Below, piece by piece: positions 6,026 to 52,876 of a stretch of DNA of 64,000 nt. The stretch is taken from positions 11,657-75,656 of the forward strand of contig CAWVWT010000002.1 of the NCBI GenBank assembly GCA_963934015.1, read 5' to 3'. Both the position numbers and the translations under genes were made by a program. Every line of letters starts with the position of its first letter. Position 1 is the first letter of the stretch. Under the pieces are notes generated by a model. That model was not told where the DNA came from, searched no databases, and saw nothing but the letters and a program-made list of their open reading frames with translations. The stretch is from an uncultured Candidatus Poseidoniales archaeon. Its GTDB lineage: Archaea > Thermoplasmatota > Poseidoniia > Poseidoniales > Thalassarchaeaceae.

Positions 6026-8815
6026 TCACCCGAGGAGATCATCGATGTTCGGTAGGTCCGGGGTTGGTGTGGTCACCGGTTGAACAGGAGCGGGTGCAAC
6101 TGCTGGTTGTACTGGTGATTGTTGTGCCAGCCATTGACTTCCGTAGTGATTCCACTGTTCCATGGTCCAGCCAAGTGGTAGACCGTTAGCAGGTACAGGT
6201 GGTCCACTTGTCACGACCGGTTCAGGAGCAACTACTTCCGGCATGCTCGGTATGTCCACTACTGGCGCGGTATTTGCGAATAGGTCCCGCTCAAATTCAG
6301 CCATCGCCCGGTCGCGACCATCGCCTTTTTTCCTGGAATTGGACCGAATGGCCAAGATTGCAGCGACAACGCCTACGTTAAACAGAAGCAGCATAGCAAT
6401 CATGGCAATCGAACCCGTATCCATCTCAAATCCGGCATCTTGTTCTCCCGCAGTATCCGTTTGATCAGAATCTGTGTTTTGATTAGTCTGATCAGTTTGG
6501 TTTTCAACAGGTTCAGTAGTGCTCTCAATAGGGGGGAAGTAAACGGTCATGACCGTATCCTTCCACATTCCCTCGATACTAACTCGAGCATTCAATTCTG
6601 CTGACTCACCAATCAAATTTGTGTAATCAGCGTAATAGGTTCCATTTAGTGCACTTGTGCTTTCTGAAATGGTAGTGTCTCCATCTTGTAAAATCCAAGT
6701 CATCTGACAATTACTTTCACATGTGATATTGACTGAAATATTGGCTGTACGTGTATCACTATCTGGTGCTTCAGACAAGCTCAATTCAATCGACAGCAGT
6801 GGGCACCCATTGAGTGACCCCCATACCTCCGGACATCCATCAACCGAATCTTTCCGACCATCGTCATCGGTATCACGTTGGTTCGCAGCACAACCACCGT
6901 CATCGGTTTCAGCCAGCCATTGTGTGTCTGGACAGAGATCAACATCATCGTTGACCCCATCCTCGTCAGTATCACGCTGCCCTGGGCCACACCCCATATC
7001 TGTGACATCCTCTTCACCCGGGGGGGTATTAGGACAGGCATCTTCGTAATTGTAAATTCCATCACCGTCATCATCGAGTTGTGATCCAGAGCAACCCAAT
7101 TCGTTCACCAGTTCCTCTCGAGGTGTTCGAGGGCAAGCATCCAAATCATCTGAGACACCATCTTCATCAGTATCTAACTGGTTGTCGGCACATCCGTCCC
7201 CATCGATATCTTCACCCTGGTCGGTTTGAGGGCAGTCATCCTCAGCATCTACCACGCCATCAGAATCACTGTCAATTTCCCATGAGGAGCAGCCAACGCT
7301 GTTAACAGTCCAACCCGGCTGCGTATCTGGGCATTGATCAATATCATCCATGACCCCATCTTGGTCAGTATCATTTTGGTTGTCCGCACATCCCACATTA
7401 TCAACACTCAATCCAGCATCTGTATTTGGGCAGCCATCCTCATCATCGATGACACCATCTTCATCTGTGTCAAGTGGTGGAATTTCACAACCATCAGTGT
7501 CAACTTGGATACCGGGTATCGTGTGGGGGCAATTGTCCATTGAATCAGCCACATTGTCTCCATCGTAGTCGGGAATACCTACAACTTGCTGCACGAACAA
7601 TGATATTGCTTTGTGCGTGGTTTCAGTTGGGTGTAAGTCATCGAAGAAGATATACTCTTCAACATTGGGTGCGATGGGATCATTGCTATCACATAGGGCC
7701 CCAGAGTGGTCACAAGCTGCATGAGTTGTGTTGGTGATGCCAAAATGTTCACCCGACCAAAACAACATTTCAAAGCCTTCCCAAACTGGAATCATGTGTG
7801 TAGTGACGCCATATGTACTCGCCAAATTTGCTGCCATTGTATGCATCCCTGAGTTGAAGTCAGCAACACGCTGCCCTAGAGCCTGGTTGTCTTCAGCAGA
7901 ATTACCGCTTGCACTCGGTGTTTTTTCAAGTGCTGGTAGTTCAAAGAAGATGAATTCTTGGCCACCATCTGCGATTAGTTGCTCTGCATGATTTTCTAAG
8001 TTAGTGACAAGCACCTGCGAGTTCGTTTCACCGTAGTTTAGCAGATCATTGCCGCCGCCCCAGATGGCGACAGCATCACCTGCGCCCAAATTAAAATTAT
8101 TATCCCATTCATCAACTTGGAGTCCAATGTTATCAATTGTCCAAAATGTCTTACCGTCACCGGTTGCAGCACCACCAAATGCACGATTGTTACCGCTGCC
8201 ACTACCCCGGCCTGCGGCATTGGTGTTGCCGAGCCAATCTTGTGTATAGTCGGCCCAATTGTTGCCATCTGAATACCGACCTTGCCAATACGGTGGGCTT
8301 TCGGGGGTTCCGAACGCACTGTATGAATTCCCAGAATCGGATAAACTATCACCGAAAACGAATAAATCTGTATATTGGGGGGACATGGATTTCCAGAATA
8401 CGGAAAATGGTGCCATTGCGGATACATCAGTCCACCCACTGGATGAGTTCAACCCAATTTCAAGAATATACATCATCGATGCATTGGAGACGTGGTGTTC
8501 ACTGAGTTCAATCTGCATTGCGCTTTGGTCGGCAAAGAACGGAATAACTCCTGCACTCACAATCGTTGCAGGTCCCAATAAACTCGAATCATTTGTCCCA
8601 TGTACCATCCAGTGGAGATCATAATTGTGTCCTAGTGTTAACCCCCAAAGTCCAATGGTTGCTTCCACAGGCTCATCAGAAGCGAATGTTTTCTCTTCAA
8701 ATAAAATTGAACCCCCCTCCAATCCGCGTGCTTCTCCAGTTCCAAGTGGAAGGGAAATCGACCAAGAAACAGTCAGGAGTGTGATGGCCAAAAGAAGAAC
8801 AAATCGCCGGCCCAT
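6026..8815 (-). CDS. Membrane-anchored SGNH/GDSL lipase-esterase with TSP3-like Ca-binding repeats
   Basis: Signal peptide; FGDSLSDSGN, GGND, FFDDLHPT blocks; DxDxDGVxDxxDxCP repeats; C-terminal TM and Trp-rich tail. Confidence 0.88.
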   Translation of the reverse strand: MGRRFVLLLAITLLTVSWSISLPLGTGEARGLEGGSILFEEKTFASDEPVEATIGLWGLTLGHNYDLHWMVHGTNDSSLLGPATIVSAGVIPFFADQSAMQIELSEHHVSNASMMYILEIGLNSSSGWTDVSAMAPFSVFWKSMSPQYTDLFVFGDSLSDSGNSYSAFGTPESPPYWQGRYSDGNNWADYTQDWLGNTNAAGRGSGSGNNRAFGGAATGDGKTFWTIDNIGLQVDEWDNNFNLGAGDAVAIWGGGNDLLNYGETNSQVLVTNLENHAEQLIADGGQEFIFFELPALEKTPSASGNSAEDNQALGQRVADFNSGMHTMAANLASTYGVTTHMIPVWEGFEMLFWSGEHFGITNTTHAACDHSGALCDSNDPIAPNVEEYIFFDDLHPTETTHKAISLFVQQVVGIPDYDGDNVADSMDNCPHTIPGIQVDTDGCEIPPLDTDEDGVIDDEDGCPNTDAGLSVDNVGCADNQNDTDQDGVMDDIDQCPDTQPGWTVNSVGCSSWEIDSDSDGVVDAEDDCPQTDQGEDIDGDGCADNQLDTDEDGVSDDLDACPRTPREELVNELGCSGSQLDDDGDGIYNYEDACPNTPPGEEDVTDMGCGPGQRDTDEDGVNDDVDLCPDTQWLAETDDGGCAANQRDTDDDGRKDSVDGCPEVWGSLNGCPLLSIELSLSEAPDSDTRTANISVNITCESNCQMTWILQDGDTTISESTSALNGTYYADYTNLIGESAELNARVSIEGMWKDTVMTVYFPPIESTTEPVENQTDQTNQNTDSDQTDTAGEQDAGFEMDTGSIAMIAMLLLFNVGVVAAILAIRSNSRKKGDGRDRAMAEFERDLFANTAPVVDIPSMPEVVAPEPVVTSGPPVPANGLPLGWTMEQWNHYGSQWLAQQSPVQPAVAPAPVQPVTTPTPDLPNIDDLLG

Positions 8816-8888
8816 GTCTGATTGCAGTGGCTACATAGAATTGAACTTTACGACAGCGCCTACAACGCATGCGCATGTCAGGGGATTC

Positions 8889-11800
8889 CTAATCAAGAAT
8901 AGCATCCAATGTAGGGCTATTCGCAACAACGACATCAATGTCGAGATCTTGGTATTCGCCTTTACCAGTAATCGAGAACATCAGGGTGTGCCAACCGACC
9001 AGCATGGCAGGTAGGAGAATTGAACTGGTCAACAAGGCAAATGTGATGAGCATCATCATCAACAGGAAGAAATTTCTCAATCCTGGGATGTCAACCAAGA
9101 GACCAGCACTCAATCCAGCACACGTTGTCGCTGTGGTCTCAAATATGGTTTGTCCAGTTCTGGAAACTGTTTTTACAATTCCAGCAGGGGTCTCTTTCTC
9201 TTCGCGAATCCGATCAATGATGTGAATCGAATCATCGACACCAATACCGAATACAATGGTTGAGACCATTGCGGTGAATACGTTCACGTTCACATCGCCG
9301 CTATACATCAGCAACGGTTGCCACAAAACAACAACTCCTACCGCCGTCATTGTGAAGAATGCGAGTCTGAATGAGCGGAACAAAATTGCCATTACAACGA
9401 GCAGGACAAACATGGTCATTATCGTGGCATCTTTTTGCGCATCATGCACCCCCTTATTTATGTCCAAAGAAAGCGGTAAACCACCTGTCAATTCACTGAC
9501 TTCAACCTGTGGAAGGGAAGGGAATCCAACAGCGAGTAAACCATCGATTTCATCTCGCAACGCACCCGCATCTCTGAGATTGATGTAAGGTTGATTTACA
9601 TACACCAGAGTTTGGGTTTCGCCACCGTCGAATTCACTCACCTCATTCATCAACATCGAGCGAACTTCGACGGATAGTGTATCAAAAGCAACATCCACCA
9701 TTTGTGGTTGGCTGGAGCCCAAGTAGGGTAAACATTCGGGGTGCAAAATGTCACTAAAGTCGGGATCTTTGGTAATATTCCAACACTCATCGTGTAGGAT
9801 TTCCCACAGACTTTGTGGCTGGACGCCAGGAATTCCCAAATCAACATGTACAGCCCTGAGAATTGTGACCAAACTCACCGTTGTGGTTTCAGGCACATCA
9901 TCGATTTGGTTTTCCATGGCCGAAATGGAATCGAGTACATCGAGATCTCTTATCGGAGCATCGTTTTCCCCCGTATGATCTGTTGCATCAACGATGAACA
10001 TGTTCGTTTGCCCACCTTCAAACACTCGGCTATATTCTGCCAGTGTTTGGTAAGACTCAAGGCCAGGTGGGACTTCGTCCGAAGAACCTGTAATGTCGTC
10101 ACCCATTGTATCGGCCATCAATAGTACACCCACTCCACTAACCGCAAAGGCCACAAGAATGACTGCCCACCATCCGACGACAGGAATCTTTCCGATTTTT
10201 TTCCATGCCTTATCAGCGGTTTCCAATCCACGCTTTCGATATCGTAGGACCCAACCTAGTACAGGTACCATAATCATCGAGAAGAAGAATGTGCAGATAA
10301 TTCCAAGGACGAGAGTCAAGCCTACAGTTCGCATTGGCTTGATGGGAACAAGGAATGGCCAAGCCAGTACACTAAATCCAACGATGGTAGTTAGTGCTGA
10401 AAGGAAAATCGCATTTCCAGTAGTCATTACAGCATCCACAGTGGCATTGAGGTATACATCGGGGTCCCATGGGTCGATCTCTTCTGAGTGCAACCCTTCA
10501 CGCTGATTCCTCCATGCTTCTTCAGCAGCTTGTTCCAACCGTTCATTCCGTCCTTCCTCGATACGATTGATGAGATGTAATGCATAGTCGACCCCAAGTC
10601 CAATCAGAATAGGGCCAGCAGCGATAATCATCGGGGTTAATTCGATATCTGCCATCACGGTAATGCCAAAGGTCACGGCCAAACTCATGATGATAGGTGT
10701 GCCACAGATGATCAGAACTTTTGGATTACGATGTAAAATGAACATGGTGATAGCTACGAATGCGAGCGACCAAGGTAGCATGTATTCGAGTTGTTCGTAA
10801 ACCGCCTCTGAAACATCATGCAGCACAGGGGTTAGGCCAGTGATGGTAATTGCACGTCGTACACCATTGTCCGGAGTTCGCCATTCGCTCTCACCAGTTT
10901 CATCATTTTCATACCACATTGGTGATAATTTTTCCTCAAACCCCTTCGCACATAATGGACATTTTAGGTAATGTTCAGCTGAACCAAAGCGATAATCAAT
11001 ATCACCTGCTACAGATGATGGGTGAATGAGCCTTGCCGCATATTCAAGGAAGGCCTTGTGATCTTTGAGCACGCTCCCCGGCTCCCCTTTTGGATCGTCG
11101 CGTGGATCAATTTGAGTATCGGCCATGTCAAAGCGAATTCCCATGACGACCACAGCAGTGTCCCAAATTCCATCCGCATTTGTATCACGGACGAATGAAT
11201 CCATCAGGCTGCCAGCATTTTCGACCATTTCATTGACAGTACCTTGGTCTGATGGGATGCTGTACCCATCGTTTACACTGGTACTGGAAACAGGGCAATT
11301 TTCAAGATTGAATCCGACAACACCATGTTCTTCCATTGCACAAGTAAATCGCGCACGACTACTGTTTGCTTCCTTGATAATTTGTGCAGGAGATAGTATC
11401 CAAACGACACCATCCTTGCGGCCCCTGTCGTTTTTATCCCAATCCAGACCGCGATCATAGTTGGAGGGGTCACTCACATCATCCCCTTCAAGATAAGATA
11501 ACTGATTCAGGATGTCGACGCTGGTCACATTGTACTCACAATCGTCAATTTCTTCACAAGTTCCCCGAGTTGCTCCATCAATTGCATTATCTGTATGAAT
11601 GTAGAGCATCACGATGTCGGTCGACCAGCCTTCACGAACTTCAAGCAGTAATTCCTTGGATTCTGCACCATCTGGGAGATACACTTCGACATCGCCATTG
11701 ATTTGGTGTTGGAAATCAATCGAATATTGGCCAATAAAACCAGTGACAAGTAACAGGATGACAATGACGGCACCAGGGGATTTGTGTAGAGATCCGTAAA

Positions 11801-11969
11801 ATCCTCGCACTGGCTTTTCGACAGCATCGTGGACAAATTCCCCTGCTGAATCCATTTTGTCGGAAAGTCCGACCCACATCAGCCGTAAACGGGTGAAGGC
11901 TGACTCACCATCATCATCCGGCAGAACCGGTTCTGATGGATCATAACCGCCAGATTTGGGGTCGCTCAT
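8889..11969 (-). CDS. MMPL/RND superfamily transporter
   Basis: Two TM blocks with GLGVDYALH and GIGVDDSIH motifs, two large external loops. Confidence 0.9.
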   Translation of the reverse strand: MSDPKSGGYDPSEPVLPDDDGESAFTRLRLMWVGLSDKMDSAGEFVHDAVEKPVRGFYGSLHKSPGAVIVILLLVTGFIGQYSIDFQHQINGDVEVYLPDGAESKELLLEVREGWSTDIVMLYIHTDNAIDGATRGTCEEIDDCEYNVTSVDILNQLSYLEGDDVSDPSNYDRGLDWDKNDRGRKDGVVWILSPAQIIKEANSSRARFTCAMEEHGVVGFNLENCPVSSTSVNDGYSIPSDQGTVNEMVENAGSLMDSFVRDTNADGIWDTAVVVMGIRFDMADTQIDPRDDPKGEPGSVLKDHKAFLEYAARLIHPSSVAGDIDYRFGSAEHYLKCPLCAKGFEEKLSPMWYENDETGESEWRTPDNGVRRAITITGLTPVLHDVSEAVYEQLEYMLPWSLAFVAITMFILHRNPKVLIICGTPIIMSLAVTFGITVMADIELTPMIIAAGPILIGLGVDYALHLINRIEEGRNERLEQAAEEAWRNQREGLHSEEIDPWDPDVYLNATVDAVMTTGNAIFLSALTTIVGFSVLAWPFLVPIKPMRTVGLTLVLGIICTFFFSMIMVPVLGWVLRYRKRGLETADKAWKKIGKIPVVGWWAVILVAFAVSGVGVLLMADTMGDDITGSSDEVPPGLESYQTLAEYSRVFEGGQTNMFIVDATDHTGENDAPIRDLDVLDSISAMENQIDDVPETTTVSLVTILRAVHVDLGIPGVQPQSLWEILHDECWNITKDPDFSDILHPECLPYLGSSQPQMVDVAFDTLSVEVRSMLMNEVSEFDGGETQTLVYVNQPYINLRDAGALRDEIDGLLAVGFPSLPQVEVSELTGGLPLSLDINKGVHDAQKDATIMTMFVLLVVMAILFRSFRLAFFTMTAVGVVVLWQPLLMYSGDVNVNVFTAMVSTIVFGIGVDDSIHIIDRIREEKETPAGIVKTVSRTGQTIFETTATTCAGLSAGLLVDIPGLRNFFLLMMMLITFALLTSSILLPAMLVGWHTLMFSITGKGEYQDLDIDVVVANSPTLDAILD

Positions 11970-12043
11970 CGCTCCACCGAATCGTCATTTCATATTGAAG
12001 GGCTCGGATGGAAGAGGTCCTTATAGGACCTCTTGGTTCTTTA

Positions 12044-13009
12044 TCAGTCAAGGCCGAACTCTTGAATCAGCAGACGCCGCATCAGTCGGCGAGCTCCATG
12101 AAGCACGAGTGCTGCAAAGCAAAGTGAAGTACCAAGCATACCAATCCAAGCGGCAGTGAGTCCTGGTCCAACTGAAAGCGAAATCGTTCCATCGGTTAAC
12201 CCCTCGACTTCGTTGAGGCCTCTCATCCCGATGGCAGCACCAGTTGCTAGTAATGAAATCCCTGGCAAGCCAAAGAAGAGGAGTGGTTTTTTTTGTGAGA
12301 GCGAAATGAGGGCGAAACTCAGAACCGTAAATCCATGGGAAAGTGCTGTGTATCGGCTCCCCTTTGGGACATCATAACGAATTTTAGTTGGTACTTCCCC
12401 CACTCGGAGTTGCAGGTCGTCGCAAGCATTGAGTATTTCAAGACAAGATTCCATCCCGTCATGGTCGAAGTTTAGGCGTTCTAGGGCTTTGGGTCCAAAT
12501 GCTCTGAAACCACTTTGTGTATCCTTGATGTTGAGGTCACTTGAAAGATTGGAAGCCGCAGTGATGACTTTGATTCCAAGTGCGCGATATGTTGGCATAC
12601 TATCTGCTCCACCTCCTTTGACAAATCGGGATCCGATGACAACATCAGCATCGTCCGCTAAAATAGGTGCGAGTAAGGCAGGTATGTCACTCGCATCGTG
12701 TTGCCCATCACTATCTAAGATGACAAGTGCTTTTGCACGTCGTTCTTGAGCGGTGTTAAAGATGGTCTTGAGGGCTCCACCGTAACCTCGATTGGCACGG
12801 TGATGGTGAACCGTTGCCCCCAAAGTGCGGGCAATTCGCGATGAAGCATCTGAAGAACCGTCATCAACACAGAGGACTTCATCGACTTGTGATTGGCATG
12901 AAAGTACAACACTTCCGATAGTTTCCTCCTCATTGAAAACAGGCATTGCGGCCATGATAGGTCCATCCCAAACAATGGGTTTGACAACCTCTTCAGGCAT
13001 ACCTTCCAT
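12044..13009 (-). CDS. Glycosyltransferase family 2 (polyprenol-phosphate glycosyltransferase-like)
   Basis: PVFNEE, VDDGSSD, NRGYG, DSDGQH, DTQSGFRA, two C-terminal TMs. Confidence 0.9.
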   Translation of the reverse strand: MEGMPEEVVKPIVWDGPIMAAMPVFNEEETIGSVVLSCQSQVDEVLCVDDGSSDASSRIARTLGATVHHHRANRGYGGALKTIFNTAQERRAKALVILDSDGQHDASDIPALLAPILADDADVVIGSRFVKGGGADSMPTYRALGIKVITAASNLSSDLNIKDTQSGFRAFGPKALERLNFDHDGMESCLEILNACDDLQLRVGEVPTKIRYDVPKGSRYTALSHGFTVLSFALISLSQKKPLLFFGLPGISLLATGAAIGMRGLNEVEGLTDGTISLSVGPGLTAAWIGMLGTSLCFAALVLHGARRLMRRLLIQEFGLD

Positions 13010-13194
13010 GGACAATGGGCCCTTGAGTCCGCATTTCAACACTTCCCTTTCAGAACCGTCCAGAGGGTGTAAACGGCTAGTGCCGCCGGGGGCGGTTGAA
13101 ACTGATTCATTCCGCTAGGCGGGGGAGAAATGAATGAAAACAACTTGTTCTTGAGAACGTGAGATTGAAGAACAACTCCCCTGTCGCCAGTAGC

Positions 13195-14133
13195 ATGGAT
13201 GTCCTTGTGACCGGCGGTGCTGGCTTCATTGGTTCGCACCTTGTTGACCGCTTAGTTGCCCGTGGGGACAATGTTACAGTCTTCGACAACATGAGTAGCG
13301 GCCGCCAAGAATTCCTGGCGCACCATGGTAAATCGATTCATTTCATTGAAGATGACCTTCTCGACCTCAATGCAGTCAAGGATGCAATGACAGGTATTGA
13401 TTTCGTTTTCCATCTGGCGGCAAACCCAGATATCCGTTTGGGGACCCGGGTCACAGATACTGACCTCAAGCAAGGAACTGTAGCAACGTACAACGTTTTA
13501 GAAGCAATGCGCTGTGCAGGCGTGAAAAATATCGCATTTTCTAGCAGTAGTGTAGTCTATGGCGAGGCGTCCGAAATGCCGACCCCAGAATCATACGGTC
13601 CTTTGTTCCCCATCAGTTTGTATGGGGCTAGCAAATTAGGGTCAGAAGCGCTAATCACCAGTTGGGTTGGCACCTTTGGGCTCAAAGCTTGGTTGTTCCG
13701 CTTCGCGAACATCGTGGGCGCGCGCGGTACGCATGGTGTAATATTCGACTTCATTCACAAATTGAAGGCTGATCCAAATCGCCTTGAAGTGCTTGGAAAT
13801 GGTCGTCAGGAGAAGTCATACATGGAAGTCCTAGATTGTGCACGCGCAATGGTTCATCTAACCGAAACGGCAAATGAACAAGTCAATTGTTTCAATCTGG
13901 GAACTCACGACACCTGTAGTGTGCGCCGAATCGCTGAAATTGTTATCGAGGAAACAGGATTTGAGAATGTCAGTATCGAATATACCGGTGGCGACCGCGG
14001 ATGGGCGGGGGACGTTCCGAAAACGATGCTTGACCCTGGTGCACTTTTTTCCACAGGATTTGAACCTAATTTCAATTCTGAAACCGCTATACGCCACACC
14101 GCTTTCACACTCATACAGGAGATTGGATTGTAA
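13195..14133 (+). CDS. NAD-dependent epimerase/dehydratase (UDP-glucose 4-epimerase-like)
   Basis: TGGAGFIGSH, SSSSVVYG, YGASK. Confidence 0.92.
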   Translation: MDVLVTGGAGFIGSHLVDRLVARGDNVTVFDNMSSGRQEFLAHHGKSIHFIEDDLLDLNAVKDAMTGIDFVFHLAANPDIRLGTRVTDTDLKQGTVATYNVLEAMRCAGVKNIAFSSSSVVYGEASEMPTPESYGPLFPISLYGASKLGSEALITSWVGTFGLKAWLFRFANIVGARGTHGVIFDFIHKLKADPNRLEVLGNGRQEKSYMEVLDCARAMVHLTETANEQVNCFNLGTHDTCSVRRIAEIVIEETGFENVSIEYTGGDRGWAGDVPKTMLDPGALFSTGFEPNFNSETAIRHTAFTLIQEIGL

Positions 14134-14825
14134 TGCAACAAACACGACGTAACATGAATTCGCTAGTTGACGATGAGAACGCTGATGCACGAATCAGTTC
14201 ATTTTTTTCTATTTCTGCTATTTTGACCGTTGTCGGTGTAATCATTTGGACATTGGCACCACCCCCTGACATTGGTCCTGCAGAAGGTCAACTTGCCCCC
14301 GACATTGTCGGCGAAGCTCATTCCAATGGTGCTTGGGAAGAGTTCAGGTTGTACGATTACATTAATCATTCATGGACGAAAGGCGAATCCGGTCAACTCA
14401 TTTTCTTGCAATTCATGGATACCGATTGCCCACATTGTTGGTCAGATGCACCGAAAATGGATGACCTCTACACCAACTACGGTTCCAATGGTGCTGTAGC
14501 ATTTGTCACAATTTCAGCTGGCATGCTCAGTTCGGACCATAGCCGGGGGGAAATCGTCGCTTTCCAAGAGAAGGGCGACCGTGATGGATGTTATCACGAC
14601 GAGCGTAACTGCCAAAATCGAGATGGTGGAGTACACGATTGGCCCTATGTTGATGACCTCAGCATGAGGGTATTCAAGGATTATGATATTCCAGGTGTAC
14701 CCTTCCATCTTTTGTTATCACCTGATGGCACAGTTATATGGAACAGTGGGATGCATGGCGAGGACCAAGATCCCTTGAGAGAACCCGCTAGCGCAATTCA
14801 GTACCACCTGACGGAGAGTGTTTGA
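14133..14825 (+). CDS. Membrane-anchored thioredoxin-fold (TlpA/redoxin-like) protein, CPHC
   Basis: N-terminal TM, FMDTDCPHC, cis-Pro motif GVPF. Confidence 0.8.
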   Translation: MQQTRRNMNSLVDDENADARISSFFSISAILTVVGVIIWTLAPPPDIGPAEGQLAPDIVGEAHSNGAWEEFRLYDYINHSWTKGESGQLIFLQFMDTDCPHCWSDAPKMDDLYTNYGSNGAVAFVTISAGMLSSDHSRGEIVAFQEKGDRDGCYHDERNCQNRDGGVHDWPYVDDLSMRVFKDYDIPGVPFHLLLSPDGTVIWNSGMHGEDQDPLREPASAIQYHLTESV

Positions 14826-15458
14826 ATGGATCCAGTAATGGTGGAGTATGGCCCACTGGCTGTTTTCCTTTCCATCATGGCGATTGGTTGTTTGATTGCG
14901 AGCAATCAGAAAATATCACAATTCGAAGAAATGGGACAAATGCGACGTCGTTTGCTCGGATTATTTGTCATTGAGATGGGTGGTTTGGCGGCCAGTGCTT
15001 GGACGTTGATGATCCACAATCAAATGGTGACAGGTGGCTCGGAATTCTGTGCTGCCGAGGGTATTGTTCAATGCGGTTCTGTCATTGGAGACCCAATTTA
15101 TTCGGAATTTTTCGGAGTGCCATGGGGCGTCATCGGAATCGGGGCATTCTCAGTTTTAGGTTGGCTTACTCTTTCCATGTTCTTGGAAATGAAAGCGGAC
15201 TGGGCCAAGTCATACGCTGACTATGCATGGTGGTTGAGCATACCGAGTGTCCCAGGAATTGCGTGGCTGGTTCTCGTCGAACTCTTTCTTGTCGAGGGAG
15301 CACCACATATCTGCCCGTATTGCACAAGTGTTCACATTGCTCTCATCGCATGCATGTACATTCTCTACACGATTCGAAATGAACGTGATGAGGGCACATG
15401 GGAAGTGACGGCACAGTTGTCTAAAGCTGAACTTCTCGCCAAGGCGCGCAAGAAGTAA
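14826..15458 (+). CDS. Vitamin K epoxide reductase (VKOR) family protein
   Basis: Loop Cys pair (FC...QCGSV), SEFFGVP, CPYC in TM. Confidence 0.9.
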   Translation: MDPVMVEYGPLAVFLSIMAIGCLIASNQKISQFEEMGQMRRRLLGLFVIEMGGLAASAWTLMIHNQMVTGGSEFCAAEGIVQCGSVIGDPIYSEFFGVPWGVIGIGAFSVLGWLTLSMFLEMKADWAKSYADYAWWLSIPSVPGIAWLVLVELFLVEGAPHICPYCTSVHIALIACMYILYTIRNERDEGTWEVTAQLSKAELLAKARKK

Positions 15459-15749
15459 TCAGGGTTGGTATGTGCCACCAATTTCGAAGAGTGCGACATC
15501 TGTCCGCATATCGACTGGTTCCATTCGGATTACAGTAACGTCAAGGCGGGTCTCTGACGCATAGTGCGCGCGCAAGATATCATACAATCTACCCTGAACA
15601 TCTGCCATTTTCGCACCACGCAGAATGGTCACCATGCGGATCGGATTATCCTCCGGAAGCTCGACGATGTACTCGACAAGCCATTCTCGATCTACTTGAG
15701 CGTCCCCTAGACGCTCTTCTTCTCTCTCTTCAGGGATGTACGCCATCAT
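15459..15749 (-). CDS. Hypothetical protein
   Basis: 96-aa ATG ORF filling the gap between flanking genes. Confidence 0.6.
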   Translation of the reverse strand: MMAYIPEEREEERLGDAQVDREWLVEYIVELPEDNPIRMVTILRGAKMADVQGRLYDILRAHYASETRLDVTVIRMEPVDMRTDVALFEIGGTYQP

Positions 15750-15831
15750 AGTAATAGTTGCACTGGCAGACTATGAATGCTTCGCAGTATATCGTTTGAA
15801 CAAAATAACGAGGGTATGATATAGGACTACT

Positions 15832-16755
15832 TCATTGGACTGTGACTCGGCGCGTGACAATACTCGAACCCACAAGCGCCCCTACAAGTAATAATAGCGC
15901 GAAACCACCTCTATTTTCCGCTTTTCGGAGTAATTCCTCGTTTGAGATTCCAATTACCCCCCGAACCTCCTTATTTACTTCGATAACCGTCACAAAACCA
16001 TCTATGTCCCCCCATGTTTCCAAAATGAACACTGGTATACCCTCTTCACTGTACAGATTGCCATTGGAAATTACCCAACCCGATTCACCTTCAAACGAAT
16101 CCAAGACCGTTCCATTTGGAGTGAATGTAATCATCTGTGTGGCAACATCGTGGTGGATGTTGATTCCGTTATTGGCGATTTCATTGGTCATTTCAAGTGT
16201 CTCTAATCGGAATACGGTTATCTTCGCATTTTCTGGTAATTCTTCATCGAAGTGCAAGTAGAGTTTCTGTATATCATCGTGGGGCTGATTATGCCAGGTA
16301 TCCCACCATGCTTGCATTCCAATCCAATGCGCCCGATTTCCTTCGGCAGAGCGCAACTCATTTTCAAGAAGTGATTGACTGACTGAACCTTCCAGTGTGC
16401 CTTGTCCATCGAACCAGAATGTTGGCAAAGACAGAGAGTGGTCAGCCTGTTTGAGTGCCACTCGTTTGGTGGTAAGTGCACTACCGAATGGGTCATGATC
16501 ATCGGGGTGCAAGGCAACACGAACAACTCGACTTGAGTGGTCAGCGACAAATTCAGAAATCCAAGGGTCTACAGTTGCACATGTGTCACACCAAGTTGCT
16601 GTGTATTGTTCCAGCAGTATTGCGTGCCCCCCATTTGCCTCTCGCGATTCATCTGGGGCACGCATATCTGCACTTACAAAAGGTAGCAGAATGAGTATGA
16701 TGAGGGCCGTCGCCATCCCCTTCTGCATATCCCAAGCGTCTGAGTCGGGTCTCAT
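15832..16755 (-). CDS. Exported thioredoxin-like (Omp28-like) protein with C-terminal TM
   Basis: Signal peptide; LLEQYTATWCDTC; LPTFWFDG; C-terminal hydrophobic helix + RR. Confidence 0.72.
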   Translation of the reverse strand: MRPDSDAWDMQKGMATALIILILLPFVSADMRAPDESREANGGHAILLEQYTATWCDTCATVDPWISEFVADHSSRVVRVALHPDDHDPFGSALTTKRVALKQADHSLSLPTFWFDGQGTLEGSVSQSLLENELRSAEGNRAHWIGMQAWWDTWHNQPHDDIQKLYLHFDEELPENAKITVFRLETLEMTNEIANNGINIHHDVATQMITFTPNGTVLDSFEGESGWVISNGNLYSEEGIPVFILETWGDIDGFVTVIEVNKEVRGVIGISNEELLRKAENRGGFALLLLVGALVGSSIVTRRVTVQ

Positions 16756-16795
16756 TTACATATCCCGGGCTCAGCCCCGGCAGTGAGGGTGTGCA

Positions 16796-17593
16796 ATGAG
16801 CAAGCGTTGGTTTCAAGCGCATCAGCGCGATACATGGCGTCGTCAAGCCAGATCAAAGGGCTACCGAACCCGTTCAGCTTTCAAACTGAAACAGATTCAA
16901 GAAAAATTCCTGTTGATACGTGAAGGTGATTTGATTCTCGATGTCGGCTCCCATCCAGGTGGCTGGACACAAGTTGCAGTCGAAGAAACAGGTCCGAATG
17001 GACTTGTAATCGGCATTGACCTACTGGCCAGCGCCCCCGTCGAAGGTGCTCAAATGGTGCTGGGAGATGTGACTGATCCAAACTGTCAGGAAAGTATTCT
17101 TGATTTGTTACATGAGGGGTTGAAAGTCGATGGGACGAACCTGCACCCTGTAGCCGATGATGAAACACGCATGTTCAACACCATCGTGTCTGATATTTCG
17201 CCACGTTTGACTGGACAATACGATCGAGACCAAGCCATTTCCCTCGAATTGGTCGCGATGGTGTTTGATTTCACATTGCCATTACTCGCCCCAGGTGGTG
17301 CCTTTGTCACGAAAATTTTCCAAGGTACGGGAATCGAAGGGATTGTCAATGCTGCCAAGCAGCGATTTTCCAGAGTCCAGAGATTCTCGCCTGAGGCATC
17401 CCGAAGCTCCTCATCGGAAGTATTCCTTGTGTGTAGGAACAAACTTCCTCACCCCAAAAAAGGTTCCCGTGGAACATCAATCACACAGGAATTAGATATT
17501 CACCTTGAATCAGAAGGCATCATTCAGCAGAAAGATTCGGGGCCAAGGGATAGCGTGAAGAGTGGTTTCCGGCGTATTCCCAAGAAAGAGTGA
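16796..17593 (+). CDS. rlmE: 23S rRNA (uridine-2'-O)-methyltransferase RlmE/FtsJ
   Basis: GYRTRSAFKL, DVGSHPGGW, SDISP, KIFQG, SRSSSSEVF. Confidence 0.93.
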   Translation: MSKRWFQAHQRDTWRRQARSKGYRTRSAFKLKQIQEKFLLIREGDLILDVGSHPGGWTQVAVEETGPNGLVIGIDLLASAPVEGAQMVLGDVTDPNCQESILDLLHEGLKVDGTNLHPVADDETRMFNTIVSDISPRLTGQYDRDQAISLELVAMVFDFTLPLLAPGGAFVTKIFQGTGIEGIVNAAKQRFSRVQRFSPEASRSSSSEVFLVCRNKLPHPKKGSRGTSITQELDIHLESEGIIQQKDSGPRDSVKSGFRRIPKKE

Positions 17594-17660
17594 AACATTG
17601 CCTTCCAACGACCGGATTGAGACCGGGTATGGAAGGCATCAAATCCAAACCCCTCCTCGC

Positions 17661-20444
17661 ATGGTCATGACTAACAAATTGGCGAGCGTTCTTCTGCTGA
17701 CCATTCTGTTGTTCTGTTTATTGCCCCCCGTCGAAGCATCGGAAGAAACGGCAGCAGTCCCTCAGTTTGGGATTGGTTTCGATGAAGTAGTGATTGCAGA
17801 CTCGTCCGACGCGCTTTCCGACCCCCGGGACCTTGAGTTCCACCCTGGTCGAGCGAACGAACTTTGGATTGCAAATCGGGCCACTGATAGCATTACCATT
17901 GTACAAAATACTGGGCTCGAATCCCAAACATCACAAAACCGGCAAGATTCTAATAAAAACCACTTCCTTGAAGAAGTAAGTGCGATTGCATTTGGGTCAT
18001 ATCATTCAGAGTTTGATTGGCAATGGGGGTCCGCTCAAGAAACGCGGAACACATTCTGTGGCCAAGGTGCTCCGAACAATTTCATGGGGCCTACACTCTG
18101 GCCATCTTCTTTGAGCCATTTTGCAATGGAAAATCAGAACAACGGAAACGGTCTTCTCGGTAGCCACATCGATATGAACCATGAATCTCCTGATGGAATG
18201 GGCATTGCTCATGATTCGGGTAATGCATATTGGTACAATGACGGCTACTATGGTGAACTGGTCTACTACGACTTCCAAATTGACCATGACACTGGCGAGG
18301 ATGACCACTCAGATGGTATTGTTCGCCGCTACACGGACATCCAGCTCACCCGGGCTATCGGAATCCCCGGCCACATGGTTCTCGACAAGGACTCCGGGAT
18401 TCTCTACATCGCAGACGCAGGAGCGAACCGAGTATTGTGGGTCAATACCGACGATACAACCTACAACACTCAGAATATCATGGGTGATTCATCTAGGATG
18501 GAGCCCTTGGCCGAGTACTCCAGCATCACGGGGGTCGAGTGGGGTGTTCTCTCCTCTGGGTTGAGCCGACCTTCTGGAATCGCAATTGATGGTGACCGAC
18601 TATTTGTCTCCCTTAACGGCAATGATCGTATCGTGGCGTATGATTTGTCGACAGATGGTAAAAGTGCGACAGAGGCAGCCAGCGTTCAGACTTCAGCCGT
18701 ATCCATCATGGGTCTTGAGATTGGACCTGATGGGCACCTATACTACGTGGACAATGGCCGAGATCAAGTTATCCGAATGGATCCATACAACGACGGAGAC
18801 GGTGATGGGGTGAAGGATGAGGATGACAACTGTCCTTCGATACCGAACTATGATCAGGCGAATCACGATGGTGACAACGTGGGTGATGTTTGTGATGAAG
18901 ATGATGACGATGATGGTATTCTCGACTTGTTTGACGACTGTGCATTTGGCGATATTGCCTGGATTTCGTCTCTAGCAACGGATCACGATACGGACGGTTG
19001 TGCTGACGTTTCCGAGGATTCCGATGATGATAATGATGGTGTGTCTGATATCGATGACCGCTGCGCTAAGGGCGACCTTACTTGGATATCAACATCGCTC
19101 ACCGACTACGATTTTGATGGATGCAGGGACGCGGGCGAGGATTTCGATGATGACAATGACCTCATCTGCGATGCCGATGGCTGGGATGGGGTTTGCACTC
19201 CATCATCAGCTGGAATCGATCTATGCCCGACAAGTCCCCACTCCTTCTTCTCTATCCCATCCAACGATGCAGATCGAGATGGTTGCGAGGACGCTGGTGA
19301 AGACAGTGACGACGATAACGACGGTTTTGCAGATTCTACCGACGATTGCCCAACGATTTCCGGAACAAGTAATTCGGGCACTCTAATCGGTTGCACGGAT
19401 TGGGATGGGGATGGTTATGCTGACACAGTCGATGTATTCCCGGTGGAACCAACCCAGTGGTCTGATACGGATGGGGATGGCTTTGGTGATGAGGACGAGG
19501 GCCATCTAGGTGACCATTGTTCAGATGTCGGCGGCACTTCCACCGAAGACCGTCGCGGCTGCCCGGATTCTGATGGCGACGGGTGGTCCGACCCGAGCAT
19601 CCCATTCTGGACGACTTCGTCTGGCGCGGACGCCCTCCCGACGGATCATACCCAGCACCTCGATCGCGACGAGGACGGCTACGGTGATGCTGAGACGGGG
19701 TACCAACCCGATGCCTGCCCTGATGTTGCAGGCACCTCGACTGCGGATGTGTTCGGCTGTTTGGACTCCGATGGTGATGGATGGTCCGATGTAGGCGATG
19801 CACTCCCTGATAATCCGACCCAGCATGTTGACAACGACATGGACGGATACGGGGAATCTCCCACTGGTGATTTCCCAGATGGCTGCCCTGGACTTTTCGG
19901 CCTCTCAACCGAGCAACGCCTCGGTTGCCCTGACGCAGATGGCGATGGCTGGGACGACGGCCTCGATGCCTTCGCATTTGACTCACGCTTTTGGTCAGAT
20001 AGTGATGGCGATGGGCACCCCGATCAACTCGGCACAAATATGTCGGACGATTGTCTTGAAGAAGCTGGCGAGTCCTTCGAAGATCGTATTGGTTGCCCGG
20101 ATTCGGACAAGGACGGTTGGTCTGATGACGCTGATGCCTTCCCCATGGATGCTTCGCGTCATCTTGTCGTAACTGGGCCTTCATTACTACTGATATTGGG
20201 TACCGTCGGTGTGATTCTCGTTGGTTCGATCCTCGGCATGCTAGTCGTAATTATCCGCCGGCGAAATTCGAATCCAACGACCACTTTACTCAATCCCGTG
20301 ACACCGGCGGCTATCGCCCCCCCTGTGCTGGCTGTATCCCCCGTTGCCCCGACAGCACTCCCTCTGCCGCCAGAGGGTTTACCACCTGGTTGGACAATGG
20401 ATCAGTGGGCATGGTATGGAGAGGATTACCTCAGAAATCGCTAA
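17661..20444 (+). CDS. Surface protein: NHL-like beta-propeller + TSP3-like repeats + TM + Trp-rich tail
   Basis: Signal peptide; PRDLEF, PDGMGIA, LYIADAG, RPSGIAI blades; many DxDGDGxxD repeats; C-terminal TM followed by RRR. Confidence 0.85.
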   Translation: MVMTNKLASVLLLTILLFCLLPPVEASEETAAVPQFGIGFDEVVIADSSDALSDPRDLEFHPGRANELWIANRATDSITIVQNTGLESQTSQNRQDSNKNHFLEEVSAIAFGSYHSEFDWQWGSAQETRNTFCGQGAPNNFMGPTLWPSSLSHFAMENQNNGNGLLGSHIDMNHESPDGMGIAHDSGNAYWYNDGYYGELVYYDFQIDHDTGEDDHSDGIVRRYTDIQLTRAIGIPGHMVLDKDSGILYIADAGANRVLWVNTDDTTYNTQNIMGDSSRMEPLAEYSSITGVEWGVLSSGLSRPSGIAIDGDRLFVSLNGNDRIVAYDLSTDGKSATEAASVQTSAVSIMGLEIGPDGHLYYVDNGRDQVIRMDPYNDGDGDGVKDEDDNCPSIPNYDQANHDGDNVGDVCDEDDDDDGILDLFDDCAFGDIAWISSLATDHDTDGCADVSEDSDDDNDGVSDIDDRCAKGDLTWISTSLTDYDFDGCRDAGEDFDDDNDLICDADGWDGVCTPSSAGIDLCPTSPHSFFSIPSNDADRDGCEDAGEDSDDDNDGFADSTDDCPTISGTSNSGTLIGCTDWDGDGYADTVDVFPVEPTQWSDTDGDGFGDEDEGHLGDHCSDVGGTSTEDRRGCPDSDGDGWSDPSIPFWTTSSGADALPTDHTQHLDRDEDGYGDAETGYQPDACPDVAGTSTADVFGCLDSDGDGWSDVGDALPDNPTQHVDNDMDGYGESPTGDFPDGCPGLFGLSTEQRLGCPDADGDGWDDGLDAFAFDSRFWSDSDGDGHPDQLGTNMSDDCLEEAGESFEDRIGCPDSDKDGWSDDADAFPMDASRHLVVTGPSLLLILGTVGVILVGSILGMLVVIIRRRNSNPTTTLLNPVTPAAIAPPVLAVSPVAPTALPLPPEGLPPGWTMDQWAWYGEDYLRNR

Positions 20445-30570: not shown

Positions 30571-30616
30571 GGATACCCCCGTCGCATTGAAGAAAGGAGA
30601 GCACCCGTCGCAGATT

Positions 30617-30862
30617 ATGGCACATGAGGACGCCAACGTCACTCTCGACGTACTCGGTTTCTACTGTCCCGTACCTGTCCATGAAACGAAACGTGTGCTG
30701 GCAACAATGTCTTTGGGTGACATAATTCTCGTGATGGCAGATGATCCTGAAACCAAAATGGATATACCCGCACTCTTGAATAGAAGTGGTGATACACTGC
30801 TGAGTGTAGAGGAAGAGGCGGGAGAGTACCATTACCGAATTCGCAAGGAGGCCCACATATGA
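30617..30862 (+). CDS. tusA: TusA/SirA-like sulfur carrier
   Basis: LDVLGFYCPVP, ADDPET. Confidence 0.88.
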   Translation: MAHEDANVTLDVLGFYCPVPVHETKRVLATMSLGDIILVMADDPETKMDIPALLNRSGDTLLSVEEEAGEYHYRIRKEAHI

Positions 30863-52872: not shown

Positions 52873-52876
52873 CAGT

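What the first reader, a model, noticed from the sequence alone, without database searches (positions are those of the whole stretch)
6127..20432. Shared cytoplasmic tail motif (GLPxGWTM[E/D]QWxxYG) on two unrelated surface proteins
Seen: after the C-terminal TM and a Pro/Val-rich linker, the GDSL lipase carries GPPVPANGLPLGWTMEQWNHYGSQWL (about 6127-6205, minus strand). The NHL-propeller protein carries LPLPPEGLPPGWTMDQWAWYGEDYL (about 20358-20432, plus strand). The heads are unrelated and the genes lie about 9 kb apart, yet the motif is nearly identical. It is not the PGF-CTERM/PEP-CTERM type, which lies before the TM. Inference: it is a portable intracellular mini-domain or address tag that docks surface enzymes on a common cytoplasmic partner for sorting, clustering, retrieval or signalling. 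I know of no characterised function for it.
Basis: partly seen in the sequence, partly recalled or inferred. Interest (0 to 1): 0.85.

Follow-up and report, generated by a model that had tools for sequence, protein, structure and literature searches.

The report
Shared cytoplasmic tail tag, Poseidoniales surface proteins
A strictly conserved 26-residue tag sits at the inner end of a fixed set of membrane-anchored surface enzymes and adhesin-like proteins in every marine Group II archaeon examined, matches no described domain, and probably serves as a common docking handle inside the cell.

Summary
The motif is GPP[LVI]PxxGLPxGWTMEQWx[HYW]YGx[QE][YW]L, about 26 aa. It occurs 8 times in this genome, not 2. 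An HMM separates the 8 copies (E below 1e-12) from everything else (next hit E=1.4).

All 8 carriers have an N-terminal signal-like segment, one C-terminal TM, a Pro/Ala-rich Cys-free linker, then the motif 18-49 aa from the end.

It was found in every genome of the order searched: 41 of 41, and 105 of 105 in the class sample. It was absent from the sister order (0 of 45). Outside the order in the phylum sample there was 1 chance-level hit in 237. Named relatives are Ca. Poseidoniales MAGs.

Codons are scrambled between copies, so this is not a recent duplication. Six of the 8 carriers have motif-bearing orthologues in another family.

No match was found in Pfam, NCBIfam, PDB or papers.

The function is inferred, not shown: a portable cytoplasmic recognition module read by a common partner.

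The parts
6026..8815 (-). Type I membrane protein, 929 aa. Layout: signal-like N-terminus, GDSL lipase, thrombospondin type-3 repeats, TM, cytoplasmic tail carrying the motif.
   Evidence: ORF. Pfam Lipase_GDSL 63 bits and TSP_3 63.2 bits. Hydrophobic segments at residues 6-24 and 803-821.
6353..6409 (-). Single C-terminal transmembrane helix, residues 803-821 (IAMIAMLLLFNVGVVAAIL).
   Evidence: Kyte-Doolittle 19-aa window score 2.69. It is followed by RSNSRKKGDGRDR.
6206..6352 (-). Variable cytoplasmic linker, residues 822-870.
   Evidence: Sequence. Across 99 carriers the linkers hold 0 Cys in 6,639 aa, are P/A/S/E/Q-rich, and are only 19-30% identical between orthologues.
6128..6205 (-). 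Tail motif copy 1: GPPVPANGLPLGWTMEQWNHYGSQWL, residues 871-896.
   Evidence: HMM hit at E 6.7e-16.
6029..6127 (-). Post-motif extension. It is Pro/Ala/Gln/Val-rich and ends in ...DLPNIDDLLG-COOH, a second acidic-hydrophobic terminal motif.
   Evidence: In 32 of 99 carriers there is an extension of more than 25 aa, mostly ending ...LLDDLDL/F...ILDFDL or ...DDLDLDF.
17562..20444 (+). Type I membrane protein, 960 aa from the first GTG; the likely true start is the Met at about nt 17661-17667. Layout: signal-like segment, NHL-type beta-propeller, TSP3-like repeats, TM, short tail carrying the motif.
   Evidence: ORF. PknD sensor 1rwi at E 2.8e-7. TSP_3 24.9 bits, just under the cut-off of 25. Hydrophobic segments at residues 40-58 and 880-898.
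20199..20255 (+). Single C-terminal transmembrane helix, residues 880-898 (GTVGVILVGSILGMLVVII).
   Evidence: Kyte-Doolittle score 2.59. It is followed by RRRNSN.
20256..20354 (+). Variable cytoplasmic linker, residues 899-931.
   Evidence: It is 20.6% identical to the linker of its 63%-identical orthologue in G026.
20355..20432 (+). Tail motif copy 2: ALPLPPEGLPPGWTMDQWAWYGEDYL, residues 932-957, followed by RNR and the stop.
   Evidence: HMM hit at E 3.7e-14. It is 88% identical to the motif of the G026 orthologue.

Best explanation
The motif is a portable, roughly 26-residue cytoplasmic recognition module. Its consensus is GPP[LVI]PxxGLPxGWTMEQWx[HYW]YGx[QE][YW]L. It is found only in Ca. 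Poseidoniales (marine Group II archaea).

It sits at or near the C-terminus of a fixed, anciently established set of bitopic type I surface proteins: N-terminal signal peptide, large ectodomain, one TM. There are 1-11 carriers per genome and 8 in this one. A fast-evolving, Cys-free, Pro/Ala-rich tether of 30-150 aa joins it to the membrane.

Shown here: the anatomy, the in-cell orientation (indirectly), the order-wide and order-restricted distribution, protein-level purifying selection, and the absence of any described relative.

Inferred: the proline-rich half and the T-x-x-E/Q-capped aromatic half together form either one small fold or one long epitope. A single common cytoplasmic-side factor reads it. 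All carriers (lipase, subtilase, arylsulfotransferase-like, NHL and WD40-like propellers, PKD/CARDB proteins) are thereby tied to the same scaffold or site under the membrane. The outcome would be co-localisation or anchoring, possibly coupling to uptake or cortex. The partner is unknown.
For: **Exclusive, position-fixed occurrence**
- This genome has 8 of 8 copies 18-49 aa from the C-end, each 50-110 aa after the only non-N-terminal TM.
- In three other genomes, 13 of 14 copies are 30-152 aa after a TM; the 14th is a 47-aa contig-edge fragment.
- Of 80 named loci, 79 carry the regex motif, and all 79 have a TM 46-141 aa upstream and a stop 18-89 aa downstream.
- In the 150 best of 652 database representatives, the motif is 18-93 aa from the end in 150 of 150. 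None has a TM after it. A TM is seen upstream in 61; 87 of the other 89 have fewer than 140 residues upstream.

**Cytoplasmic side**
- Mean K+R is 1.69 in the 14 aa after the TM against 0.57 before it.
- The linkers hold 0 Cys in 6,639 aa, against 1.14% in the ectodomains.
- N-x-S/T sequons run at 0.41 per 100 aa in the linkers against 1.06 in the ectodomains.
- Sister tails of the same architecture carry intracellular modules: SAP at 27.3 and 31.7 bits (cut-off 23.9), and a zinc finger at 36 bits.
- P0030 has an N-terminal TM followed by two motif copies.

**Specific recognition rather than bulk chemistry**
- 11 positions are 100% conserved and 8 more at 90% or above in the 150 best representatives, including Gly and Pro.
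- In six orthologue pairs between two families the motif is 40-88% identical. The linker is 19-30% and the heads 30-63%.

**Ancient, selected at protein level**
- The 8 copies share the same codon at only 132 of 347 identical-residue degenerate positions. Nucleotide identity is 40-76%.
- 6 of 8 carriers have full-length motif-bearing orthologues in G026.

**Lineage signature**
- 41 of 41 relatives carry it.
- In the class sample, f1 is 40 of 40 and f3 65 of 65, against 0 of 43 and 0 of 2 in the other families.
- Outside the order in the phylum sample there is 1 hit in 237, at E 0.0077.
Against: No partner was found and no binding was tested.

G000 has no MIT domain at E 0.01 or better and no Pfam WW domain at E 0.1 or better. 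Other proline-binding families (SH3, GYF, EVH1, profilin) were not searched.

The positive-inside signal is modest. Only 50 of 99 carriers have more K+R after the TM than before it, and some tails begin with acidic runs.

Strict conservation would fit self-association or a processing signal equally well.

The signal peptides and TMs come from a crude hydropathy window, not a trained predictor. The representative set is biased to the best-scoring 150 of 652 hits.
Confidence: 0.45

Rival explanations
1. Homotypic clustering tag. The modules bind one another through an aromatic zipper or dimer of mini-folds, so carriers co-cluster without any separate partner.
For: The motif is aromatic-rich and strictly conserved. 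One protein carries two tandem copies (P0030). Several different carriers per cell share one tag.
Against: Nothing tested. The dimer job (alignment A4, 2 copies) did not complete. Tandem copies fit bivalent binding to a partner equally well.
Confidence: 0.15
2. Biogenesis or turnover signal. A cytoplasmic enzyme or chaperone recognises the motif for targeting or insertion of very large secretory proteins, for regulated proteolysis or tail release, or as a degron. The motif would not be a steady-state anchor.
For: The motif is restricted to large secreted bitopic proteins and sits near the C-terminus. Prokaryotic C-terminal tags are usually processing signals (recalled). The same window holds an exosortase/archaeosortase-family gene (TIGR04178, 37.1 bits against a cut-off of 23).
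Against: About 68 other large type I proteins in the same genome do without it: 8 of 76 carry it. So it is not needed for export as such. Exosortase-type signals lie before and within the TM, not 30-150 aa after it (recalled). The carriers have no PGF-CTERM hit.
Confidence: 0.15
3. In-plane membrane anchor. The Trp/Tyr-rich segment folds back onto the inner leaflet as an interfacial helix.
For: The core has three to four aromatic residues, and Trp/Tyr favour membrane interfaces (recalled). The tether is always long enough to fold back.
Against: The helical hydrophobic moment is low: muH 0.25 and mean H 0.09 for the 14-aa core. No conserved basic residues are present. Conserved E/D, Q, T, Gly and Pro and near-100% residue identity are not what lipid-binding helices need. 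The conserved PP[LVI]PxxGLP half is left unexplained.
Confidence: 0.08
4. Not a functional unit: a chance resemblance, a low-complexity artefact, an assembly artefact or a recent duplication or gene conversion.
For: None found.
Against: The HMM gap runs from E 1e-13 to E 1.4. Synonymous codons are scrambled. The distribution is order-wide. Contigs from two independent seawater metagenome studies cover window 6026-6962 with 3-4 differing letters and no indels.
Confidence: 0.01

Closest known systems
PGF-CTERM / PEP-CTERM / LPXTG-type C-terminal sorting signals (archaeosortase, exosortase, sortase substrates)
   Same: All are short portable C-terminal tags. They are shared by many otherwise different surface proteins of one lineage, occur in multiple copies per genome and are lineage-restricted.
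   Different: Those signals are tripartite: signature motif, then TM, then a short basic stub at the extreme C-terminus, and they are cleaved (recalled). Here the motif lies 30-152 aa after the TM on the cytoplasmic side. It has no TIGR04126 or other sorting-domain hit. PGF-like endings occur on other proteins of the same genome.
Eukaryotic short linear motifs and mini-modules in disordered cytoplasmic tails of type I receptors and adhesins (adaptor-binding sorting signals; the acidic tail with sub-terminal Trp of apicomplexan TRAP/MIC2 adhesins) - recalled
   Same: The architecture matches: ectodomain with adhesive or TSP-type repeats, a single TM, and a disordered tail with an island of conservation near the C-terminus. 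That island is shared across unrelated ectodomains.
   Different: There is no sequence relationship. The organism is an archaeon with no known adaptor, clathrin or glideosome machinery. At 26 residues with about 19 near-invariant positions, the motif is longer and stricter than typical SLiMs.
WW domain and its PPLP/PPxY ligands
   Same: The motif holds an LPxGW string like the first WW strand and an upstream PP[LVI]P like a class II WW ligand (recalled consensus). Chance-level PDB hits to LPxGW-containing chains include a Salvador WW domain at E 4.4.
   Different: There is no Pfam WW hit on the tails at E up to 10 and none in the genome. The two Trp are 5 residues apart, not about 20-22. The Trp-rich tails of other proteins in the genome that look WW-like by eye also hit no WW model or structure.
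PP-fold (pancreatic polypeptide) and Trp-cage miniproteins - recalled
   Same: A polyproline stretch, a Gly-containing turn and a short aromatic helix in fewer than 40 residues. This would explain why the Pro, Gly and aromatic positions are all conserved together.
   Different: This is purely a structural analogy. No fold could be computed because structure prediction was off, and there is no sequence similarity in the PDB.
Cytoplasmic ZnR/GYF modules of the Myxococcus gliding-motility protein GltJ (bacterial focal adhesions) - recalled
   Same: Small cytoplasmic modules on envelope-spanning proteins couple surface adhesion to a cytoplasmic machine. Zinc-ribbon tails occur on sister proteins in this genome.
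   Different: The lineage, topology and motif all differ, and no homology was detected.

Membership tests
PGF-CTERM / exosortase-archaeosortase sorting signals | Match to the curated sorting-domain models (for example TIGR04126 PGF_CTERM) | tested here: not met
   NCBIfam gave 0 hits at E up to 10 for 4 of 4 tails. The two full window proteins had no sorting-domain hit at E 0.01 or better. A different G000 protein (L135) gives PGF_CTERM at 18.1 bits, below the cut-off of 24.5.
PGF-CTERM / exosortase-archaeosortase sorting signals | Signature motif directly before the TM, and the TM followed only by a short basic stub at the extreme C-terminus (recalled definition) | tested here: not met
   The motif lies 30-152 aa after the TM. 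The tails are 62-158 aa long in G000.
WW domain (PF00397) | Pfam model match; two Trp about 20-22 residues apart in a three-stranded sheet (recalled) | tested here: not met
   No Pfam hit on the tails at E up to 10. PF00397 was not found in G000 at E 0.1 or better. The Trp residues are 5 apart.
Portable disordered-tail docking motif (SLiM-like); asks 'works like', not homology | An island of conservation inside a fast-evolving, compositionally biased region | tested here: met
   The motif is 40-88% identical against 19-30% for the linker in 6 orthologue pairs. Linker composition is P 13.6%, A 13.4%, S 9.1%, E 9.0%.
Portable disordered-tail docking motif (SLiM-like); asks 'works like', not homology | Occurs on proteins with different globular parts | tested here: met
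   The heads are GDSL lipase, an NHL propeller, subtilase S8, an ASST-like protein, PKD/CARDB, WD40-like, and two with no Pfam hit. Some share a TSP3 stalk.
Portable disordered-tail docking motif (SLiM-like); asks 'works like', not homology | A defined binding partner | not testable with these tools
   Complex prediction did not complete (7 tries). No partner candidate emerged. MIT and WW domains were not found in G000.
PP-fold / Trp-cage-like autonomous mini-fold | Polyproline II segment packed on an aromatic helix | not testable with these tools
The ESM Atlas holds no model. No PDB relative scored better than E 0.5.
Amphipathic in-plane membrane anchor | High helical hydrophobic moment with flanking basic residues | tested here: not met
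   muH is 0.25 and mean H 0.09 (Eisenberg scale) for the 14-aa core. No K or R appears among the conserved positions.

The most novel reading that the evidence does not exclude
Poseidoniales may run a 'tail code'. In this genome at least 76 large type I surface proteins have cytoplasmic tails of 25 aa or more. Several interchangeable end-modules recur on those tails:
- this 26-aa tag;
- an EQLLxxGWTQEQI helix-loop-helix;
- Trp-rich hairpins;
- zinc ribbons;
- SAP domains;
- a terminal LLDDLDL-COOH.

Under this reading the tag is the address for one cortical scaffold. That scaffold would physically couple a fixed team of exo-hydrolases and adhesins to intracellular machinery. It would be an archaeal counterpart of adaptor-based receptor sorting or focal-adhesion-type coupling that arose independently of eukaryotes.
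Probability: 0.15. Interest if true: 0.85.

Novelty: new variant of a known kind. Interest (0 to 1): 0.6.

Why it matters
Marine Group II archaea are the most abundant planktonic archaea in ocean surface waters and are uncultured (abstract of PMC6461757). Their cell biology is known only from genomes.

The tag marks a defined, conserved team of surface hydrolases and adhesin-like proteins, and it points to a common intracellular reader. That gives several practical handles:
- an HMM for annotating these proteins;
- a lineage marker;
- a bait peptide for finding the partner;
- a testable entry into how a possibly wall-less archaeon organises its surface enzymes.

The kind is also unusual for prokaryotes: a conserved post-TM cytoplasmic tail module on secreted bitopic proteins. 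Known prokaryotic C-terminal tags are cleaved sorting signals placed at the TM.

Tried and rejected
**Searches for a known relative (all negative)**
- Pfam and NCBIfam on the isolated tails gave nothing at E up to 10.
- A PDB profile search gave chance-level hits only, best E 0.53.
- The ESM Atlas by features gave a best score of 0.76, to archaeal hypothetical fragments; that is below the level at which shuffled queries also hit.
- The search for homologous proteins with region 865-905 returned only the query itself, from 4 candidates, because the word filter is too strict for a 41-aa region.
- The viral contig scan found 17 pattern matches, none confirmed.

**Literature (all negative for this motif)**
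- 'GWTMEQW', matched anywhere: 0 papers.
- 'Marine Group II' + 'cytoplasmic tail': 0 papers.
- Poseidoniales + C-terminal + transmembrane + motif: 4 papers, none on this by title or abstract.
- archaea + surface proteins + cytoplasmic tail + C-terminal motif: 2 papers, both on protists.
- In PMC6461757 I read passages only. It mentions thrombospondin and flotillin genes as adhesion traits. The words 'transmembrane' and 'C-terminal' occur 0 times. Its supplementary tables could not be seen.

**Candidate partners or readers**
- The gene at 37660-40485 is DUF11, not HEAT/TPR.
- MIT (PF04212) and WW (PF00397) were not found in G000, which is 88.6% complete.
- I considered that Trp-rich 'WW-like' tails of other surface proteins bind the PP[LVI]P half. 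I dropped the idea for lack of support: those tails hit no WW model or structure.
- Flotillin, which Rinke et al. mention, was considered only as an idea and was not tested.

**Origin**
- The EQLLxxGWTQEQI tail motif shares the GW[TS]xEQ core but is patchier: 5 of 17 other Poseidoniales sampled and 0 of 103 outside the order. The class-A HMM does not detect it. No ancestor relationship is claimed.
- An orthologue of the NHL carrier was not found in 4 of 4 sister-order (f4) genomes searched with this query. Tails could therefore not be compared across orders.

**Expression**
- One 170-nt contig of an RNA library (X19) lies at 6568-6733, inside the gene but not on the motif. DNA carry-over cannot be excluded.

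- Complex prediction returned no result of any kind, so it bears on nothing.
Full report
**1. Observation**

The two ORFs and both motif copies are exactly where the finding puts them.
- Window 6026-8815 (-) encodes 929 aa, with GPPVPANGLPLGWTMEQWNHYGSQWL at nt 6128-6205.
- Window 17562-20444 (+) encodes 960 aa, with ALPLPPEGLPPGWTMDQWAWYGEDYL at nt 20355-20432, four residues before the stop.

The first protein is a GDSL lipase with thrombospondin type-3 repeats (Pfam 63 and 63.2 bits). The second has an N-terminal propeller. That propeller matches the PknD sensor domain (1rwi, E 2.8e-7) and the Pizza designs derived from it (E 2.5e-14). It also has TSP3-like repeats at 24.9 bits, just under the cut-off. 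That 1rwi is an NHL propeller is recalled.

Each protein has an N-terminal hydrophobic, signal-like segment and exactly one further hydrophobic helix. Basic residues follow that helix, and the motif comes after them.

One correction to the finding: the heads are not wholly unrelated. They share 33% identity over about 300 aa in the TSP3 stalk.

**2. It is a family of eight in this genome**

The window is G000:C2:11657-75656. G000 is an assembly of 1.90 Mb in 59 contigs, 88.6% complete.

A regex for the core finds 8 six-frame ORFs, all with the motif 18-49 aa from the C-end. A 27-position HMM built from those 8 recovers them at E 6e-16 to 2e-13 among 16,549 ORFs of 50 aa or more. The next hit has E=1.4. 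The set is therefore sharply bounded.

All 8 have the same architecture. Their heads differ:
- GDSL lipase plus TSP3;
- NHL propeller plus TSP3;
- a weak WD40-like propeller;
- PKD plus CARDB;
- subtilase S8 plus CARDB (1,648 aa);
- arylsulfotransferase-like plus TSP3;
- two with no Pfam hit.

**3. Distribution**

With the 8-tail alignment (A1):
- 41 of 41 relatives in 3 families and 7 genera have 3-10 matches.
- In a class sample of 151 genomes, the two large families of the order score 40 of 40 and 65 of 65. The other families of the class score 0 of 43 and 0 of 2.
- In a phylum sample of 301 genomes, the same two families score 21 of 21 and 42 of 42. Everything else scores 1 of 237, a single hit at E 0.0077, which is chance level.

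A pattern-plus-tblastn scan of one genome per prokaryotic species matched more than 599 stretches, and 297 were confirmed. Of the best 80, 79 are MAGs titled Ca. Poseidoniales, Poseidoniaceae, Thalassarchaeaceae, Poseidonia, or generic Euryarchaeota, Methanobacteriota or Thermoplasmatota archaeon.

The remaining one is titled Verrucomicrobiales. Its ORF is 32% identical over 431 aa to G000's PKD carrier, so I read it as a mis-binned contig.

G000's own carriers are closest to loci titled Thalassarchaeaceae or MGIIb, at 62-90% identity.

A profile search of 1.84 billion representative proteins gives only 652 hits at E 1e-3 or better, and 433 at 1e-10 or better. Viral contigs give none.

**4. 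Anatomy across the family**

In three other genomes, 13 of 14 copies lie 30-152 aa after a TM and 18-50 aa before the stop. The 14th is a contig-edge fragment.

Among the 80 named loci, 79 carry the regex motif. All 79 have a TM 46-141 aa upstream (median 74) and a stop 18-89 aa after the GW; in 71 of 79 the stop is within 60 aa.

Among the 150 best representatives:
- the motif is 18-93 aa from the end in 150 of 150 (median 21);
- none has a TM after it;
- 61 show the upstream TM;
- 87 of the other 89 have fewer than 140 residues upstream, and I take them for fragments.

The conserved unit is longer than the finding stated. It is GPP[LVI]PxxGLPxGWTMEQWx[HYW]YGx[QE][YW]L. Eleven positions are at 100% and eight more at 90% or above in those 150 (this set is biased to the top scorers). 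The 22-tail alignment A2, which spans three families, keeps P, G, W, Q, W and G invariant.

About a third of carriers (32 of 99) continue for more than 25 aa. Most of these end in an acidic-hydrophobic terminus...LLDDLDL/F...ILDFDL or ...DDLDLDF. The window's lipase ends ...NIDDLLG.

**5. Which side of the membrane**

There is no direct test. The indirect evidence agrees on a cytoplasmic tail.
- K+R after the TM averages 1.69 against 0.57 before it.
- The linker has 0 Cys in 6,639 aa, against 1.14% in the ectodomains.
- The linker has fewer N-x-S/T sequons, 0.41 against 1.06 per 100 aa.
- The heads are extracellular types: proteases, a lipase, and Ca-binding TSP3, PKD and CARDB domains.
- Tails of sister proteins with the same architecture carry intracellular modules. 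These are SAP at 27.3 and 31.7 bits (cut-off 23.9) and a zinc finger at 36 bits.
- One representative (P0030) is just an N-terminal TM followed by two motif copies.

The positive-inside signal is modest: only 50 of 99 carriers have more K+R after the TM than before it. Some tails start with acidic runs.

**6. Age and selection**

The 8 copies are 40-76% identical at nucleotide level (mean 61%). They use the same codon at only 132 of 347 positions where the residue is identical and degenerate. This rules out recent duplication or gene conversion.

Six of the 8 carriers have full-length, motif-bearing orthologues in the complete genome G026, from another family. Their heads are 31-65% identical. 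In those six pairs the 25-aa motif is 40-88% identical, the linker 19-30% and of different length, and the TM 16-47%.

This is an island of purifying selection at the end of a free-running tether.

Contigs from two independent seawater studies cover the tail-coding DNA with 3-4 differing letters and no indels.

**7. What it is not**
- It has no Pfam or NCBIfam hit at E up to 10.
- It has no PDB relative; the best E is 0.53, from chance LPxGW or QWxHxGxxYL strings.
- The ESM Atlas gives no lead.
- No paper was found. Passages of Rinke et al., PMC6461757, mention thrombospondin and flotillin genes but never tails. Supplements were closed.
- It is not a PGF-CTERM-type signal. The window itself holds an exosortase/archaeosortase-family gene at 29611-30642 (-) (TIGR04178, 37.1 bits against a cut-off of 23). 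Other G000 proteins end in PGF-like signals, one scoring PGF_CTERM at 18.1 bits, sub-threshold. The two systems therefore coexist and are distinct.
- It is not a WW domain.

**8. Context: a genome full of tailed surface proteins**

I ran a crude census of 1,291 non-overlapping ORFs of 150 aa or more, using a hydropathy window only. It finds 122 ORFs with a signal-like N-terminus plus one late TM. Of these, 76 are at least 300 aa long with tails of 25 aa or more, and 8 of the 76 carry this motif.

Other tails end in recurrent modules:
- an EQLLxxGWTQEQI helix-loop-helix (5 in G000; found in 5 of 17 other Poseidoniales sampled and 0 of 103 outside);
- Trp-rich hairpin-like ends with no Pfam or PDB relative;
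- zinc ribbons (7 by regex);
- SAP domains;
- acidic-hydrophobic termini (12 of 76, against 47 of 848 for all ORFs of 300 aa or more).

The motif is thus one module in a wider system of cytoplasmic tail ends.

**9. Mechanism (inferred)**

Near-total conservation of Gly, Pro, Trp, Tyr, Gln and Glu over 26 residues points to one of two things: a specific fold or a long epitope read by a protein. The motif sits at the end of a variable tether and is found only next to the membrane.

T-x-x-E/Q directly after GW is a helix N-capping pattern (recalled). The upstream PP[LVI]PxxGLP could form a polyproline segment that packs on the aromatic helix, PP-fold or Trp-cage-like. Alternatively it could be a proline ligand.

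I commit to a common cytoplasmic-side reader that ties the carriers to one site or scaffold, at confidence 0.45.

The rivals are:
- homotypic clustering (0.15);
- a biogenesis or turnover signal (0.15);
- an interfacial membrane helix (0.08), disfavoured by muH 0.25 and the absence of conserved basic residues;
- an artefact (0.01).

No partner was found. MIT and WW domains were not found in G000.

**10. Verdict**

This is a real, sharply defined, order-wide and order-restricted, undescribed cytoplasmic tail module. I rate it a new variant of a known kind (portable C-terminal tags of surface proteins), with interest 0.6.

Noticed in passing
G000 genome-wide, e.g. C11:30662-37723(-), C26:5674-9123(-), C23:25299-29156(+), C8:27115-29856(-), C4:62030-64831(+): Many other large type I surface proteins have long cytoplasmic tails that end in known intracellular modules. 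These are SAP domains (27.3 and 31.7 bits, above the cut-off) and zinc ribbons or fingers (PF23145 at 36 bits; 7 tails by CxxC...CxxC regex). SAP domains on the cytoplasmic ends of giant surface proteins are unexpected.
   Followed up: partly
G000 C9:14596-14667(-), C10:37877-37948(-), C23:28866-28934(+), C1:23328-23396(-), C5:38653-38724(-): A second recurrent tail motif, xxTDEQLLxxGWTQEQIxxxR, shares the GW[TS]xEQ core with the finding's motif. It was found in 5 of 17 other Poseidoniales sampled and 0 of 103 other genomes of the phylum at E 1e-4 or better.
   Followed up: partly
window 6029-6058(-); G000 C14:31704-31740(-); loci L010, L042-L046, L051-L054 and others: A third signal sits at the extreme C-terminus: an acidic-hydrophobic ending (...LLDDLDL/F...ILDFDL...DDLDLDF...NIDDLLG). 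In 32 of 99 motif carriers a 30-70 aa Pro/Thr/Gln-rich spacer precedes it. Similar endings occur on tails that lack the motif: 12 of 76 tails, against 47 of 848 for all long ORFs.
   Followed up: partly
G000 C8:2726-5047(+), C10:56385-59096(-), C6:53292-56006(+), C1:105016-108582(-), C6:5770-7089(+), C1:89203-93861(+), C25:1337-5647(-), C3:31988-35290(-): Some tails end in a Trp-rich unit of about 30 aa, GxEWxxxPxxSGxWWYRxxxxxQWxxH, that looks like a small beta-hairpin or WW-like unit by eye. It has no Pfam hit at E up to 1 and no WW structure among the PDB profile hits.
   Followed up: partly
window 29611-30642 (-): A 343-aa ORF matches the exosortase/archaeosortase family signature TIGR04178 at 37.1 bits (cut-off 23). 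Several other G000 proteins end in PGF-like signals (...LPGF..., a TM, then a basic stub). One scores PGF_CTERM at 18.1 bits, sub-threshold.
   Followed up: partly
No HEAT or TPR hit appears at E 0.001 or better.
   Followed up: yes
L002 (G000 C8:13090-14235, -) and L129 (G026): The smallest motif carrier, 374-377 aa, has a conserved CGG[SA]CHG string near its N-terminus. This is a CX3CH pattern that could be a variant haem-binding site. It has no Pfam hit.
   Followed up: no
P0030 (database representative, 297 aa): This protein has only an N-terminal TM and a long acidic region that carries two copies of the motif, one of them divergent (PPNWTDEQWAYYGESWL). It has no ectodomain.
   Followed up: no
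L043 (NZEQ01000049.1, titled Verrucomicrobiales bacterium MAG): This is the only non-archaeal title among the 80 best loci. Its ORF is a PKD-type motif carrier, 32% identical over 431 aa to G000's C14 protein, and it ends ...LLDDLDF. It is probably a mis-binned Poseidoniales contig.
   Followed up: partly
window 45862-56818 (+): Two further giant surface-type genes lie side by side. One is a 2,336-aa subtilase with GH115_C and glucodextranase-B domains. The other is a 1,333-aa WD40-propeller protein. Neither carries the motif.
   Followed up: no
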